From a virus (taxonomy: Duplodnaviria; Heunggongvirae; Uroviricota; Caudoviricetes): a stretch of DNA of 35,118 nt. This document shows, piece after piece, positions 26,325-35,118 of the stretch; positions within the stretch are counted from its first letter, which is position 1; each line of letters begins with the position of its first letter. The stretch is from IMG/VR virus record IMGVR_UViG_2529293069_000022; one strand, given 5' to 3'. Position numbers: made by a program.

Positions 26325-29300
26325 CAAAGGAGAACTAAAATCTAATGAAGTTTCAATATTATATTCATGATTTTTATGGTCTATATCAGATAATGAAATG
26401 GGTTGTTCATTCAATGATGATACAGACAGATCATTTTCAATGTAATAATTACTATCATTATATGAGCTTTCAAATTTACCCAAGAAAGCCACATATACTA
26501 ATTTAAAGTGGTTTGTCTTAAATAGAAACTTATCATTTTCATCCGGCATCCCAAAAAAGAAAACCGTCAAGTATTTTTTAGCATTCCTTTTATCTTTAAG
26601 CCCCTTATAATACCTATCAGCTTCCTTCCTTTGCTTTTCATATTCCTTCCAAAACACATCCTTCTGACTTTTATTCCAGTCAGAAACATCAATTTCAAGC
26701 GTAAATGGTTTTTGGGTTTTCTTATCCCTTGCGAGGAAAGTAATACAATGTTTATCTGAATCTTCATGCAGACGAATATTAGACTGGGCTACACCATAAT
26801 AAATAGCAGGTTTGTAATAACGTATGTTGTTTTTGTAAAAAATAAGTTGAAATGTATCTTTATAAGATCGCGTGCCATATGGAGGGATTGATAGCTGTTC
26901 ATTATGATTGCTATTATTTATGTAATAGTCAACGACTGGCTTAATACTTGATGAAGATACAGGATGTTCATTACCTTTTTTTTCATCCTTGTGATTTTCA
27001 TTTTTAATATTTCTGGCATTTTTAACACCACCTCTTGGTTTCACATCAATTTTTAAAAGTGATATAACCGGAGCAGGTGGCGAATTATGTTTTCTTTCGT
27101 CATTTGAAGTATGATTGTTTTTATATCTTGGATCATGAATACCACATCCATCCTTATGTTTATCGCCATATCTGAAATATGATTGATTAACATGTTTCAT
27201 AGTAAAACTACAAGGTGTGGCTTTAATTTTACAAGGCTCGTATGGGCATTCAAAACTCGTTGTCTTAATGTAAAAATCATCCATTCCACGGAGATCATTT
27301 CCATGAATGATTTCATCAGTCGAACTATCCTTCGCAATCGTCATATCTTAACCCTATGAAAATCTATGTCCTTCTAAGGATTCTAGCTTTTTCTTATTGA
27401 CGATCCAATCAAAAAATTGTACTCCAACTTACCAAAATACACGATCAAGCAGAAGTTATTAACTTAAGGGGTAGAATTAGTATTTTTCAAAGAAATTAAA
27501 TGTTTGACAGAATGATGCTGAATAACATCGCTAACCTTAGTAAGGTCAGGGAGTTGTTATACACAACTCCCCTCTATTATCGTTTGTTAAAGGTTCTGGG
27601 TATGTATGCATGGTAACAGTAAAAGCATCTTAGAGGATGCTTTTAAGCATTAATTAGATTCATGGAATTATAGATTTACGAATCTAATATTAAAATTTAG
27701 ACTATAGATTAAGTAAGTCTAATGAAAATCATACAAACACTACAACCCATATCTTTTCCTTTTATCCTTTTTCGATAATTCTCTTTTTAGAGTTGAAGCC
27801 TCATATTTCCTTTTCTCATTAGCATAGACTTTCTCTGTTCGGCTACCATTACTGACTATAAAGTTAATCAATGAAGAACATACATGCTTCATACGCTCTT
27901 TGTTGATCAAATCATCATCCAGTTTATTTATATGACTATAATATGAAAGTAGCAGAAAGGTTAAAACAACCTCCCTGTTGGAGAAGGTCATTTTTTCTAT
28001 ACCACTCTGGTATTTGATATAAAATCCTGCACAAAAAAGATATGATTGTTCGATAATTCGTTGCTCTGAGAAACCTGATTCAGCGAGTTTATCAACGAAT
28101 CGATCAAGCAGAAGAAGATACCTTTCCATTAAGTTAATATTTGTTTTGTCCATAATATGCATCCTTGCAATAGTGAAATTTTGTCGTCCTGACAAGAAAA
28201 TAAATAACATAATATTTCACCATGTCAATAGCTAAAACCTATCAATTTTATTAAAGGTATTTTGCAGGTAACGGATTATTAAGTTCTTCAATCGTTATTT
28301 GTTTAAGGTGAGCATTATAAAGCCATACTTTGAACTGCTCTAAATAGCGTTCATTTAATGCCTTCAAAGCTTCATTTTCTGCTTCAAGTCTTTTAATTCG
28401 TTGAGAAGCCACTTTTAAATTAGCAGGTTTTACAGTGTGTATTACACCAGATTTGATTGTGGTTTTTTTCACATTGAAGCTTTCCGCAATCCTTACATGA
28501 CTACTTAAGGATTGTCTTGATGGTCTTTTCCCAATAACCCTGACTAACCTATCGCACAAAGCATTCCAGGTTAGTTTTTCATCTATAGACCATGTGTTAA
28601 TAACATCTACAATCTTCTTCTCATGATAACCATTTATATGCTTAGCCATTTATTCTCCTTTTTTTATTTTTTTATGGAATTCATACCATTTATCAGCATT
28701 TATGTTCCCATCATTTTTATCATACAGTGTTCTTTTTAAAATTTTATCGTGGATATTTGAAATCGTTTCGTTATCTAAACCAGAGTTCTTAATTGGATAA
28801 TTATCACACGGCTTAAACGCATATGAGTGCTTGCAGTAGCCATGTTTTGATACAAGTACTGCACCACTACTAAGTGAGTCAAACTCATTAAGATCCACTA
28901 CTGGAATATCCTTTATTCTGTGCTCATTAACACATACTGATAACTTTTTTTCTCTTATTGCTTTAGACATTTGAAGATGCGATCTGTGGTCATAAGAAAC
29001 ATTTTGAGAAATAAGCTTACGTCCAGACCAGCGAGCAATACTAAATTCATCCATACCATTTATTTGAGCAAATGTGTTGAGAAGATGCCTTAGTTGATGT
29101 GTTCTTAGCAAATATGGGCTACCATCTTCATTTATATAACCATGTCTTTTAAAAACATTAAAATACCCTTTTATATAATCAGAATCAATGATATCAGTTT
29201 TAAAAAAATTCGTTGTAGGTCTGAATAATTTATCTGACATTTCCTTTTTATTTTGATTTAACTGTCCTTCAGTTAACAAGCAAAGCGCATTAGAATATTT

Positions 29301-32300: not shown

Positions 32301-35118
32301 CATATTCAATGAACTGTTTCTTGGAATATGTGCTCTGATACTTTCAATAAATACGTCTACTTCATACTTTGCATGAATCCCCTTTGACGAATGAACTAAT
32401 CCACATAACCACTTAAGGTAGCGTGAAAAAACGTGTATTCTATAACTAAAGGTTCTCTTCGCAATAAACCTATAATTTGTCGATTTTATATTTATGATTT
32501 TTTGTCTGTCGAATCTTTGTTTCGCATATCTTACCAGATCATCTATTTCTGCAACGCTGAGATATTTTTTAAGTTCAACTCTCTCAATTATATCAATTCC
32601 CCTACCATCCAAGAAATTACTGAAAATTAGTAAGTTAGTTGCAACTATTTCCATCGTTGAGGCCGTTGCGCCTCTATTTCTTATGTCTGTAGTAAGAAAT
32701 AGATTTTGATAGTAAGTTGGTAGATTACTTTTTTTATCAAGGATCAGGCATCCTCGCTCTCCACTACTCATGATGAATTTCTTTACTTTATATCCCATTT
32801 TCACCTCAAACTTAACAAATTAATATCACTCTCACTTATTAAATATATTCCAATTCAAAATAATTCAAATTTTTTACAATGAATCTTGTTTAATTGGTAT
32901 ATATATTAATGGCTTGAAAAATTTTATTTGACGTCAAATAAACAGGTACGGCTAGTGGGCTGTATCCATACCCGATATTAAGAAAACCATCTCTAAGCCT
33001 TATAGCAAAAGCTCTGCCAGAAAAAACGTAAAGAATTACGTTAAATATAGATTTTTTTAAGATTTAAACTTTACAAATCTGAGAATTAATCCTCATAAAT
33101 AAGAAGACTGTCATTTTATTTCAGGCAACATGCTTTCTTGAATTTTCGATAGTTAATTGAATCCATTCGTCTACTTCACTTTCAATGAAAGCAACAGAGC
33201 GCGCACCGATTTTAACGGGGGAAGGAAAACGATTTTGGTTGATGAGGTGATAGATCCAAGCTTTACCGTATCCAGTTCGATGCAGAACCTCTGGTAAACG
33301 AATAAGGCGGGTGTTGTGCTGATTCATAGTCGTTTCCTCTGTGCCGTTTTGATGGAAATGACTATACAAATGAATCAGCAGGAAAAAGACCGAAGCTGGG
33401 AACGCCAGAGCTAATGGAGGTTGGTCTTAGTCAGAATCAGCGATTTTCATCACGTCTGAAACTCTGATCTTTTTCAAATGGCTGTTCTTGTTGATGAACA
33501 GATTAAACTGGCGAATAAAAGGTATACTCGCCGCCTTCAAAGCAAGAGGTTTGTCTGTATCCCTGATTTGGTGGTTCAGGCGAGTGTTGATCTCATCATC
33601 GTCATCTGTATACAACAGGCGAGAAAGGCGGTCTTCTGATATACGTACTTTATATAATTTTGACCATACCAGAATGTCGATCATGGGAAGGAGTCTGTAA
33701 TTAATGATTTTCTTAATCGTTCCATAACCAAAGCGAATAGCTTCCGTTACATCTGGTTCTATGCCACGCACTTTACGCCATTGAGGAAGTGCAGCCTTTA
33801 GGGATTCAGCGATCTCTTCATCTGTCCCGTTTGCTAGGTCGATTTCGACCATGACAGTATCCCTGAACAATTTTGGCAAAACTTCCGATACAGGGCTATC
33901 GAGGAATTCTCTGTTAACAGAATACTCATCGCTTCCATCCCAAAAAAACAGTGAGTTCCGTAATCCAACTATGCTGAGTTGAGCCAGTCTTTCGGTTGTC
34001 GTCAAAAAGAAGTGCGGGGGCTGGTAAAGAGTATCCTCTCTTGTGAGATAGCCGAGATGCTTTTCTGTGATGAGAAAGGGCTTTCCAGTGAAGATCCTGT
34101 CGATGTAGAGCCTTACGGCTTCTGCTTCAAATTCTTCATGATATGGTTTGAAGAACAATGTCCTTGCCAGCAATTCATGGTAGAGGTGTATAAGCGGAAG
34201 CTCTTCGAATCCGCGATATGTATCTATATCCAGCCACTTCTTCACCTCTCTCGTATGTTCAACTGACCAGTTTTTCATAACGATCTCCAACAGGCATTAG
34301 ACTTAATGTATGTAGCAAACGTAATCGACATGTTAAAGGAAGACCAATGAAATGAGTTCAGATGCCATCAGGAAGTTGAACCAAAAGGTTTGATATTTTT
34401 TGATACAGTTCGCTAACGGACTATTTTCAGGGGTTTATGCCGTTACGATTTATGGTTCCTTTATAGAACCAAAGGTAAAGTCAGAAACAGCAGTTATCTA
34501 GAAAATTCAATCAAATAGATATCTAGTTACAGGGACGCCAGCCCAATCATGATTGGACGGTGTAAGGACAACACCAACAAAAACAGGAAGTTAGAAGTCT
34601 CAGCAGGACACCGACCAGACGGTGAGGAGACATAAAAGGATACGCAAAGGAGCCGCGGCTCCTGGTGACATGAAAGCCCACAGATGTGGGCTTTTTCGTT
34701 GATGGTCAGAACGACCAGTTCACACCAGCTACCGCGTTCCACGGGGATTCCACACCGGCACCATGGCTATACCCCACCCCAAGATGCCCGCTTAACGTAC
34801 TGCTGAATGAGGCTTTAATACCTGCCTGGTATATTCCACGTCTGCCCGACAAATCATTGACGAAATTACCGTCATTATTCACCTTCACCCGGTTATCATC
34901 GACAAATTCTTTGCGCACAGCCGCCTTCAGCCACGGCTCAATTTCCATACCGTTCCCCAGACGCATGTTGTAACTCAGCGTTGCGCCCAGTTCACGATAT
35001 ATACTGCGGGTATCGACTGATTTCGATTCCATGCCATTGGATAAATGATATTCGGGGTTATCAGCGGTGAACCCCGTTAACGATGCATACGGCGTCAGGT
35101 TCCAGTTACCATCGGTAA

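What the first reader, a model, noticed from the sequence alone, without database searches (positions are those of the whole stretch)
27667..33080. Recurring TATAGATT / AGATTT-AAATCT motifs and an 18-bp palindrome flanking the recombinase operon
TATAGATT occurs twice at 27670-27710 (just beyond the last gene of the operon) and once at 33046-33053 upstream of it, next to the inverted pair AGATTT-N9-AAATCT (33060-33080). The perfect palindrome TTATTTGACGTCAAATAA sits at 32924-32941. These could be recombinase-binding sites or element termini. A related ATAGATATCTA palindrome near 34515 shows the motif is not unique to the two ends, so this is only suggestive.
Basis: seen in the sequence. Interest (0 to 1): 0.4.

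Follow-up and report, generated by a model that had tools for sequence, protein, structure and literature searches.

The report
Recombinase island attachment site, not TATAGATT
The flagged short motifs are mostly chance, but 16 bases from the flagged palindrome lies what looks like the real attachment site of a known kind of three-recombinase mobile island (a GInt) nested inside an E. coli O157:H7 genomic island.

Summary
TATAGATT is not enriched (3 seen, 2.1 expected). Neither it nor AGATTT-N9-AAATCT is conserved in 94-99% identical copies of the operon in other bacteria.

The operon is a ginABCD module. [quoted passage not shown]

Comparison with about 110 related loci points to a canonical tyrosine-recombinase core site at 32945-32972: two 11-bp inverted arms around a 6-bp overlap. 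Five of those six bases are hypervariable (15 different 5-mers in 16 loci), inside otherwise near-invariant DNA. Two gin-less relatives break at exactly this point.

One gin-less contig is an empty site for a closely related element. It places the other end just upstream of the mobC-like gene. In this window the inferred element is about 22899-32961 (10.06 kb). It carries gin, a conserved 137-aa gene, cargo and a relaxase module.

The 18-bp palindrome is real. It is conserved next to the core, with symmetric compensatory changes. The left-hand TATAGATT cluster is a set of 3'-UTR hairpins before a terminator, inside the element.

The real recurring motif is TGTAAAG.

The parts
22899..32961 (-). 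Proposed GInt-type element (10,063 bp), 5' (gin) end on the right. Order: ginABCD, orf137, cargo, 233-aa gene, relaxase, mobC-like gene.
   Evidence: Mapped by homology from the occupied/empty pair L004/L016/L105 versus L120. Right end also supported by the hypervariable overlap. O157 and Pantoea L018 share 22768-33077 at 94.6-98.1% (95.7% on the mob side) between unrelated or diverged flanks.
32945..32972 (.). attL core site: GGTACGGCTAG (32945-32955, element side), 6-bp overlap TGGGCT (32956-32961; 32957-32961 hypervariable), GTATCCATACC (32962-32972, host-island side). The arms are 8/11 inverted repeats.
   Evidence: Gin-less loci L120 and L121 diverge exactly after the overlap.
32924..32941 (.). 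18-bp perfect palindrome TTATTTGACGTCAAATAA, 3 bp inside the element-side arm. Probably a dimer-binding accessory or operator site.
   Evidence: Invariant in 19 close copies. Replaced by TTTCTTTCACGTGAAAGAAA at the same place in loci with 41-66% GinC identity, through two symmetric double substitutions.
33066..33075 (-). Lies in the host-island arm, about -272 from the ginA ORF start at 32804.
   Evidence: TGTAAAG is the 7-mer found in the most ginA upstream regions (50 of 70 loci). GTAAAG/CTTTAC density is 3.4 per kb upstream against 0.65 per kb locus-wide. 121 forward against 20 reverse copies, clustered at about -280, -120/-75 and -20.
32866..32878 (-). Middle TGTAAAA box, inside the element.
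32804..32817 (-). Proximal, degenerate box TGTTAAGTTTGAGG, overlapping the ginA ribosome-binding site.
31593..32798 (-). ginA, a tyrosine recombinase (401 aa from the annotated ATG; the ORF runs to 32804).
   Evidence: Pfam Phage_integrase, E = 2.5e-18. Candidate catalytic R, H-x-x-R, W and Y read from the translation.
30278..31603 (-). ginB, a tyrosine recombinase (441 aa).
   Evidence: Pfam Phage_integrase, C-terminal part. NCBIfam NF041502, 318 bits.
28650..30281 (-). ginC, a 543-aa protein with the tyrosine-recombinase fold (RefSeq name: 'DNA-binding protein').
   Evidence: Listed as a ginC ortholog in Idola 2023, Additional file 10. Model matches Cre, XerH and Tn1549 Int. R228, H395-x-x-R398, W418 and Y430 are invariant in 27 homologs.
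28251..28649 (-). ginD, a small 132-aa protein.
   Evidence: WP_001052051.1 is listed as a ginD ortholog. Detected in 77 of the 83 loci tabulated.
27740..28153 (-). orf137, a conserved fifth gene of the enterobacterial subclass.
   Evidence: Follows ginD in 39 of the 83 loci tabulated, all of the enterobacterial type.
27600..27739 (-). 3'-UTR hairpin array and terminator holding the two left-hand TATAGATT copies. Stems: TTAGAC/GTCTAA, TTAGATTCGTA/TGAATCTAA and GCATC/GATGC.
   Evidence: RNA fold -34.2 kcal/mol, z = -5.3. Present only in 'type A' loci; absent where orf137 abuts the 233-aa gene.
25566..27740 (.). Lineage-specific cargo insert: a 430-aa protein with a (TGGCTC)x29.7 array, and a BamE-domain protein.
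   Evidence: Homology gap relative to type B loci. Tandem repeat.
22955..24593 (+). mobC-like gene (22955-23356) and relaxase (two ORFs, 23361-23606 and 23628-24593; RefSeq: pseudogene, internal stop).
22888..22925 (.). Proposed attR junction. Host-island side ends ...CTATCATAT at 22898. Overlap TAAATA spans 22898-22903. The element-end dyad AGCATA-AGGAA-TATGCT lies at 22909-22925.
   Evidence: Homology to the L004 attR versus L120 attB comparison. The dyad keeps its symmetry through a compensatory change in the L004 type (AACATA..TATGTT).
22874..22901 (+). Sigma-70-like promoter TTGACA-16-TATAAA spanning the proposed junction and reading into mobC.
   Evidence: Read from the sequence. The -35 box is conserved in both flank types.
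22771..22898 (.). Conserved host-island arm with a long hairpin (AGCAAGGGCTAAC...). Variable defence cargo begins immediately to its left.
   Evidence: All 22 aligned loci share the arm from AGCAAGGGCTAAC rightwards. In most, the DNA immediately to its left is unrelated; a few pairs (O157/L101, L017/L113) share left-flank sequence.
32962..33120 (.). Host-island arm between the overlap and the alpA stop.
   Evidence: Retained in gin-less L120 and L121. Its haplotypes mostly follow the alpA flank type.
33121..34290 (-). alpA (33121-33327/33369) and the DUF6387 gene (33427-34290) of the host island.
   Evidence: Pfam. Flank identity is 63-83% between flank types, while gin is 94-99%.
9811..9832 (+). 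Perfect copy of the ssrA 3' end, the left border of the host island. The integrase gene (9956-11227) follows.
34536..34546 (+). Degenerate ssrA 3'-end copy, the right border of the host island. Core chromosome resumes at about 34543.

Best explanation
The operon is the ginABCD recombination module of a GInt-type element nested in a P4-like island integrated at ssrA in E. coli O157:H7. The element is inferred to run from about 22899 to 32961.

Shown or directly read from sequence: its gin-proximal end is a lox/dif-like core, with 11-bp inverted arms around a 6-bp overlap at 32945-32972.

Inferred by analogy with GInts, SEs and Tn554: the Gin proteins cut there with a 6-nt stagger and exchange strands with the other end, forming a circle that re-inserts into the same about 250-bp docking site of related islands (between the int/cargo side and alpA).

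Also inferred: the 18-bp palindrome next to the core, the matching dyad at the far end, and the directly repeated TGTAAAG boxes are accessory protein-binding sites.

TATAGATT and AGATTT/AAATCT have no role of their own. The left-hand cluster is the transcript's 3' hairpin and terminator array.
For: 1. Identity of the operon. WP_001059531.1 and WP_001052051.1 are listed as ginC/ginD orthologs. There are three recombinase-fold proteins plus a small one.
2. Shared module, diverged flanks. The gin segment is 94-99.5% identical in O157, other E. coli islands at leuX and proL, Klebsiella, Xenorhabdus, Brenneria, Enterobacter and Pantoea. The alpA-DUF6387 flank falls into 4-5 types that are only 63-83% identical.
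3. Hypervariable overlap. The 5 columns at 32957-32961 have a mean entropy of 1.55 bits against 0.095 overall. They are the most variable 5-column run in 5.35 kb, with 15 different 5-mers in 16 loci, and lie between invariant 11-bp arms that are 8/11 inverted repeats.
4. Gin-less relatives. L120 and L121 keep the alpA-side arm and diverge exactly after the overlap, each into a different partner sequence.
5. Empty site. L120 matches the occupied L004 at 98.8% over 2983 nt on one side and 85.4% over 1318 nt on the other. 9.2 kb is missing (7.95 kb plus an IS3) and only 4 nt are unaligned.
6. Accessory sites. TGTAAAG is enriched, strand-biased and positionally conserved across 70 loci. The palindrome and the end dyad show compensatory changes.
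7. Published behaviour. GInts make 6-nt staggered cuts and generate sequence variants at their att sites (PMC5385486).
Against: - No empty site was found for the flank type that O157 itself carries. None of 5,426 E. coli genomes covers at least 80% of a synthetic attB.
- The far end rests on one empty-site lineage, and its overlap (AAATA or AAGTA) is not hypervariable.
- The host-side arm at the far end does not resemble the other three arms.
- The 10-17-nt imperfect direct repeats described for GInts are not evident.
- The attL region is 100% identical in 300 O157:H7/O55:H7 genomes, and the relaxase is annotated as a pseudogene. This copy may therefore be inactive.
- The region downstream of ginD is a mosaic, so homologous recombination also shapes these loci.
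- No experiment was possible.
Confidence: 0.65

Rival explanations
1. The gin operon is a fixed, non-autonomous module of a family of tRNA/tmRNA-integrating mobilizable islands. On this reading it is not a separately mobile GInt. The shared boundaries reflect homologous-recombination mosaics, L120 and L121 are ordinary deletions, and the variable patch is a mutational hotspot of unknown cause.
For: DUF6387-alpA-ginABCD-orf137-...-relaxase-mobC synteny holds in about 37 loci, down to 31-36% GinC identity. Mosaic identity patterns occur downstream of ginD. O121 and Klebsiella indica loci have O157-like flanks but 38-48% Gin proteins. No empty site exists for the main flank type in E. coli.
Against: Two independent gin-less loci break at the same nucleotide, inside a canonical 11-6-11 site. 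The L120 versus L004 difference is precise to 4 nt. Fifteen different 5-mers confined to the overlap are hard to produce by homologous recombination. Classical GInts without any of the island genes carry homologous operons and the same TGTAAAG boxes.
Confidence: 0.2
2. The palindrome and the TGTAAAG boxes are purely transcriptional signals for the gin and alpA genes (operator, promoter elements) and play no part in recombination.
For: The palindrome contains TTGACG on both strands, 120-137 bp upstream of ginA. The proximal TGTAAAG-type box overlaps the ribosome-binding site. In SEs the attL region doubles as the intA promoter.
Against: The palindrome lies 3 bp from the core arm, and a second dyad lies 5 bp from the other overlap. 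The simple consensus scan found no promoter in 32805-33120 on the gin strand. The two roles are not mutually exclusive.
Confidence: 0.25
3. One reading: a 5.4-kb element (27667-33080) whose termini or recombinase-binding sites are the TATAGATT and AGATTT/AAATCT motifs.
For: All three TATAGATT copies fall in the two intergenic flanks. An 11-nt imperfect direct repeat TTTACRAATCT occurs only at 27675 and 33070.
Against: The motifs are at chance frequency and are polymorphic in 94-99% identical copies. No locus pair has a homology break at 27675-27685. The left site is absent from type B loci that carry the same gin module. My own estimate gives about 0.45 chance matches of 10/11 in the search space of the two flanks. 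The real breakpoints are 32961/32962 and about 22898/22899.
Confidence: 0.03

Closest known systems
[quoted passage not shown] 2017, PMC5385486; Idola et al. 2023, PMC10214605)
   Same: A four-gene operon (three recombinase-fold proteins plus a small protein) sits at one end and cargo follows. Insertion is site-specific. The overlap is 6 nt and the att site shows sequence variants. The O157 GinC and GinD proteins are in the published ortholog list. GInts were reported in 7.5% of Escherichia replicons; here the operon is in 392 of 5,426 genomes.
   Different: This element is nested in a P4-like island at a dedicated site next to alpA, rather than in a housekeeping gene. It carries a fifth conserved gene and a mobC-relaxase module, whereas GInts were called putatively non-mobilizable. 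GinC keeps R, H-x-x-R, W and Y, which the published Pseudomonas GinC is said to lack. The 10-17-nt flanking direct repeats are not evident.
[quoted passage not shown]
   Same: Four recombination genes lie at the left end and the third is a large recombinase with catalytic residues. A 6-bp spacer next to the terminus changes between copies. The promoter lies in the attL region. Empty sites are rare.
   Different: The proteins fall in the GinC/GinD clusters, not the Tfp/Srap clusters. Strand bias and copy-out could not be tested. No 13-19-bp terminal inverted repeat pair was found.
Tn554 (tnpA-tnpB-tnpC)
   Same: [quoted passage not shown] Strong target specificity. A variable 6-bp junction sequence.
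   Different: Tn554 has no middle recombinase-fold protein, lives in Firmicutes hosts and has unrelated sequences.
P4-like tRNA/tmRNA islands such as CP4-57 (int-alpA)
   Same: The host island here has an integrase next to an ssrA 3'-end repeat, an AlpA-family gene and a degenerate repeat at the far border.
   Different: That machinery explains the outer island borders (9811-9832 and 34536-34546). It does not explain the gin module or the site at 32945-32972.
dif/lox-type core sites and Tn916-type coupling sequences
   Same: The core has 11-6-11 geometry with imperfect inverted arms, and the central bases differ from copy to copy.
   Different: This is a resemblance only. Binding and cleavage were not tested.

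Membership tests
GInt | ginABCD operon: three tyrosine-recombinase-fold proteins followed by a small protein, co-oriented and overlapping. | tested here: met
   ORFs of 403, 441, 543 and 132 aa with overlapping or abutting ends. Pfam hits for A and B. The GinC model matches Cre, XerH and Tn1549 Int, E about 1e-5.
GInt | Sequence orthology of GinC and GinD to the reference GInt (P. stutzeri DSM 4166). | tested here: met
   Not recomputed here. WP_001059531.1 and WP_001052051.1 of O157:H7 EC4115 appear in Additional file 10, 'ginC and ginD orthologs'. RefSeq assigns the same accessions to this locus.
GInt | Tripartite layout: gin operon at the 5' end, then cargo, then a short AT-rich 3' end. | tested here: met
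   ginA starts about 160 bp from the overlap. Cargo runs from 27740 down to mobC. 56 AT-rich bp separate the mobC start from the proposed end.
GInt | Site-specific insertion shown by occupied versus empty sites. | tested here: met
   Met for close relatives: L004, L016 and L105 are occupied and L120 is empty, precise to 4 nt. Not met for the flank type carried by O157 itself.
GInt | Flanking 10-17-nt imperfect direct repeats (attL/attR). | tested here: not met
   In gin orientation attL is GGATAC-AGCCCA-CTAGCC and attR is TTAATT-TATTTA-TATGAT. They share only the last base of the overlap. The TTTACRAATCT repeat was rejected.
GInt | 6-nt staggered cuts and sequence variants at the attachment site. 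| tested here: inconclusive
   A 6-bp spacer with 5 hypervariable positions fits this feature. Cleavage positions were not measured.
GInt | GinC lacks part of the catalytic motif (first Arg or Tyr). | tested here: not met
   R228, H395-x-x-R398, W418 and Y430 are invariant in 27 homologs at 37-74% identity. The R-to-Y spacing is 32, as I recall for Cre and XerD. The model has low confidence around Y430. This is a described property, not a defining one.
GInt | Excision as a circle that requires all four genes. | not testable with these tools
   Needs PCR and genetics.
SE (strand-biased circularizing integrative element) | Tfp/Srap orthology and 13-19-bp imperfect terminal inverted repeats with a 6-bp spacer in the joined form. 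| tested here: not met
   The proteins are filed in the GinC/GinD clusters, which are separate from Tfp/Srap. No inverted partner of the terminus was found. The joined arms GGTACGGCTAG and TTATGCTTAAT match at only about 6 of 12 positions (my reading).
RIT (recombinase in trio) | [quoted passage not shown] | tested here: not met
   The sizes are 401, 441 and 543 aa and there is a fourth gene. No long terminal inverted repeats were found.
Integrative mobilizable element | A relaxase and oriT without a mating-pore system. | tested here: inconclusive
   A relaxase (NCBIfam TraI/MobA(P), E = 3e-12) and a mobC-like gene are present in 37 related loci. The O157 copy is annotated as a pseudogene. oriT was not identified.

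The most novel reading that the evidence does not exclude
Enterobacterial GInts may form a distinct subclass with four features:
- They carry their own mobC-relaxase module.
- Their third recombinase is catalytically complete.
- They dock into a dedicated, co-evolving attB of about 250 bp inside minimal P4-like int-alpA-DUF6387 islands at tRNA/tmRNA genes. This would make a two-tier nested mobile element.
- The 5-nt hypervariable overlap may be the scar of repeated, error-prone processing of attL, for example copy-out with repair of a covalent protein-DNA link as proposed for SEs.
Probability: 0.4. Interest if true: 0.65.

Novelty: new member of a known kind. Interest (0 to 1): 0.5.

Why it matters
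GInts and their relatives (SEs, Tn554) are poorly understood multi-recombinase elements that carry defence, virulence and resistance genes. The ends of the enterobacterial GInts had not been defined in the papers I could read.

A defined core site, with predicted circular and empty-site junctions, makes excision and integration of these elements directly testable in E. coli. It also gives genome annotators a way to delimit the elements.

It would further explain why one gin module turns up nearly unchanged in differently diverged defence islands across Klebsiella, Pantoea, Brenneria, Xenorhabdus and E. coli.

For the finding as originally written, the lesson is negative: AT-rich 6-8-mers recurring in AT-rich spacers are not evidence of anything.

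Tried and rejected
- **TTTACRAATCT direct repeat (27675 and 33070) as attR/attL.** It is the only pair in the window, but I estimate about 0.45 chance matches for the search space. No homology break occurs there, and the left copy is missing in type B loci.
- **Terminal inverted repeats.** None found.
- **My first inference of a sharp boundary at 33077**. It was partly an artefact of a roughly 60-nt indel in the O157-type flank. The base-level alignment moved the boundary to 32961/32962.
- **Empty sites in E. coli.** Neither the leuX-type alpA-DUF6387 query nor a synthetic attB found any.
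- **L110 and L111 as empty sites.** They are an IS3-family insertion plus a deletion.
- **A second hypervariable patch at the far end.** There is only AAATA or AAGTA at the junction, and a moderately variable pentamer between the -35 and -10 boxes.
- **The hairpin boundary at 22771 as the element end.** It is retained in concept as the edge of the docking arm, because L120 keeps the equivalent arm.
- **Consensus promoter scan upstream of ginA.** No hit.
- **PADLOC and NCBIfam searches.** They gave no names for ginC, ginD or orf137.
- **Sequence search of GinC against solved structures.** Only noise.

Full report
**Observation.** The three TATAGATT copies (27669, 27703, 33046), the AGATTT-N9-AAATCT pair (33060-33080) and the 18-bp palindrome (32924-32941) are all present. 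TATAGATT is at chance level: 3 observed, 2.1 expected, and 36 of 100 shuffles reach 3. No extended direct or inverted repeat joins the two flanks.

**Context.** The window is E. coli O157:H7, and 27400-33400 is 100% identical to strain 493/89. A perfect 22-nt copy of the ssrA 3' end lies at 9811-9832 and is followed by an integrase gene. A degenerate copy lies at 34536-34546, and core DNA (the ypjA side) resumes at about 34543. The operon therefore lies in a P4-like island of about 24.7 kb integrated at ssrA. That island also carries His-Xaa-Ser and Lamassu/ABC-3C-type defence cargo, a mobC-relaxase pair, alpA and a DUF6387 gene.

**The operon.** It encodes proteins of 401/403, 441, 543 and 132 aa, then a conserved 137-aa protein.
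- The first two hit Pfam Phage_integrase.
- The third has no Pfam hit, but its AlphaFold model (pLDDT 74) matches Cre, XerH and the Tn1549 integrase.
- Its RefSeq accession, and that of the 132-aa protein, are listed among 'ginC and ginD orthologs' in Additional file 10 of Idola et al. 2023.

So this is the ginABCD module of a GInt (Bardaji et al. 2017). GInts were reported in 7.5% of Escherichia replicons; I find this operon in 392 of 5,426 complete genomes. Unlike the published description of GinC, R228, H395-x-x-R398, W418 and Y430 are invariant across 27 homologs.

**Relatives.** A profile scan of one genome per species returned 80 loci, and a metagenome scan with the DUF6387 protein returned 29. 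They fall into two classes:
- classical GInts with ginABCD only (Pseudomonas, Aeromonas, Psychrobacter and others);
- an enterobacterial class with the fixed order (int)-DUF6387-alpA-ginABCD-orf137-[cargo]-relaxase-mobC.

**Where the end is.** The gin segment of the window is 94-99.5% identical to copies in other E. coli islands at leuX and proL, and in Klebsiella oxytoca, Xenorhabdus, Brenneria, Enterobacter and Pantoea. The adjoining alpA-DUF6387 flank falls into 4-5 types that are only 63-83% identical.

A base-level alignment of 19 gin-carrying loci (plus the two gin-less loci L120 and L121) gives this layout in gin orientation...CGGGTATGGATAC | NNNNN | ACTAGCCGTACCTGTTTATTTGACGTCAAATAAA....
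- In a separate 5.35-kb alignment of 16 loci, the five N columns (window 32957-32961) have a mean entropy of 1.55 bits against 0.095 overall, the highest of any 5-column run, with 15 different 5-mers in the 16 loci.
- The flanking 11-mers GGTATGGATAC and CTAGCCGTACC are 8/11 inverted repeats separated by 6 bp. This is the geometry of a tyrosine-recombinase core site.
- DNA between the patch and alpA has haplotypes that mostly follow the flank type. DNA on the gin side is nearly invariant.

**Gin-less relatives.**
- Metagenome contigs L120 and L121 keep DUF6387, alpA and the arm up to the patch. They then continue into different DNA.
- L120 is an empty site for the proL-island element of E. coli YZLc23-1 (L004), and also for L016 and L105. 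It matches at 98.8% over 2983 nt on the cargo side and 85.4% over 1318 nt on the alpA side. 9.2 kb is absent (7.95 kb plus an IS3) and only 4 nt are unaligned.
- The missing segment runs from the core to just upstream of mobC.
- In window orientation the junctions read: attR AAATAT|AAGTA|AATAAG, attL GCTAGT|AAAAT|GTATCC, attB AAATAT|AGATA|GTATCC.
- L121 is a deletion from the same point into an integrase gene. L110 and L111 are IS-mediated deletions.

**The far end in O157.** By homology the O157 element is 22899-32961, or 10,063 bp. O157 and Pantoea L018 are 94.6-98.1% identical (95.7% on the mob side) from 22768 to 33077 and differ outside that span. The extra 128 and 116 bp on either side are the two arms of the docking site. 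The left arm begins at a hairpin (AGCAAGGGCTAAC, 22771). All 22 aligned loci share the arm from this hairpin rightwards; in most of them the DNA immediately to its left is unrelated, though a few pairs share it.

**What the flagged motifs are.**
- Right-hand group (33046-33080): it lies in the host-island arm. TGTAAAG is the 7-mer present in the most ginA upstream regions (50 of 70). The GTAAAG hexamer is about 5-fold denser there than locus-wide. The motif is strongly strand-biased (121 against 20) and sits at conserved distances of about -280, -120/-75 and -20, including in classical GInts that lack alpA. The AGATTT/AAATCT arms and TATAGATT vary among near-identical copies.
- Palindrome: it lies 3 bp inside the element-side arm and is invariant in the close group. 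It becomes TTTCTTTCACGTGAAAGAAA in loci with 41-66% GinC identity, keeping perfect symmetry through two paired substitutions. A second dyad, AGCATA-N5-TATGCT, sits at the other end and also shows a compensatory variant.
- Left-hand group (27669-27710): it lies in a 2.2-kb cargo insert present only in some lineages. As RNA of the gin strand it forms three hairpins, the last resembling a terminator (z = -5.3).

**Mechanism.**
- Shown: the core geometry, the hypervariable overlap, and presence/absence at that point.
- Inferred from GInt, SE and Tn554 biology: Gin proteins make 6-nt staggered cuts at the two ends, form a circle and re-insert into the same docking site of related islands. This would explain one gin module sitting in diverged backbones.
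- Speculative: the overlap diversity may reflect heteroduplex resolution or error-prone repair.
- A TTGACA-16-TATAAA promoter spans the far junction and reads into mobC.

**Caveats.**
- No empty site exists for the O157 flank type in 5,426 genomes.
- The far end rests on one empty-site lineage, and its overlap is not hypervariable.
- Homologous recombination also makes mosaics downstream of ginD.
- The O157/O55 copy is invariant at attL in 300 genomes and its relaxase is annotated as broken, so it may be inert.

**Verdict.** The element is a member of a known kind (GInt). It has features not described in the papers I read: a relaxase module, a dedicated docking site inside P4-like islands, and a catalytically complete GinC.

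Noticed in passing
window 28650-30281 (ginC): The third recombinase-fold protein keeps invariant R228, H395-x-x-R398, W418 and Y430 across 27 homologs. Published accounts say GinC lacks part of the catalytic set.
   Followed up: partly
window 26148-26325: A perfect hexanucleotide array (TGGCTC x29.7) lies inside the 430-aa cargo gene. The window differs from strain 493/89 by 78 nt (13 units) in this area, so it is probably a variable-number repeat.
   Followed up: partly
window 22874-22901: A sigma-70-like promoter (TTGACA-16-TATAAA) straddles the proposed attR junction. mobC-relaxase expression would therefore depend on the integrated context.
   Followed up: no
window 23361-24593: The relaxase is split into two ORFs and RefSeq marks it as a pseudogene with an internal stop. 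The O157 copy may no longer be mobilizable.
   Followed up: no
window 22771-22830: A long imperfect hairpin (AGCAAGGGCTAAC...GAGTTCCCCTTG) marks the point where variable defence cargo begins. All 22 aligned loci share it, and in most the DNA to its left is unrelated. It could be an oriT or a cargo-exchange site. About 500 further E. coli genomes match only this piece.
   Followed up: partly
window 9811-9832 and 34536-34546; also 17178-17417: A perfect and a degenerate ssrA 3'-end copy bound the host island. An integrase 3' fragment in the middle is homologous to the integrase end of a proL island (L110), which suggests past fusion or rearrangement of islands.
   Followed up: partly
It may belong to the P4-type integrase's attachment region.
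   Followed up: no
window 17613-21768: The cargo next to the docking site hits Lamassu LmuA and LmuB models (PADLOC), while RefSeq calls it an ABC-three-component system. K. oxytoca L014 carries the same cargo at 99% identity next to a diverged mob region.
   Followed up: no
L006 (E. coli O121:H19), L093 (Klebsiella indica), L064/L065 (Pectobacterium): These loci have alpA, DUF6387 and orf137 that are 72-93% identical to O157, but Gin proteins only 31-48% identical where compared. Whole gin modules are swapped between otherwise similar islands.
   Followed up: partly
L121 6590-7360; L110 11274-12480: Two decayed islands. One has a deletion running from the attL overlap into the integrase 3' end. 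The other has an IS3-family insertion 45 bp outside the core, followed by a deletion.
   Followed up: yes
window 32905-33015: The attL region is 100% identical in 300 O157:H7 and O55:H7 genomes. The element has been fixed and unchanged since before the O55/O157 split.
   Followed up: yes
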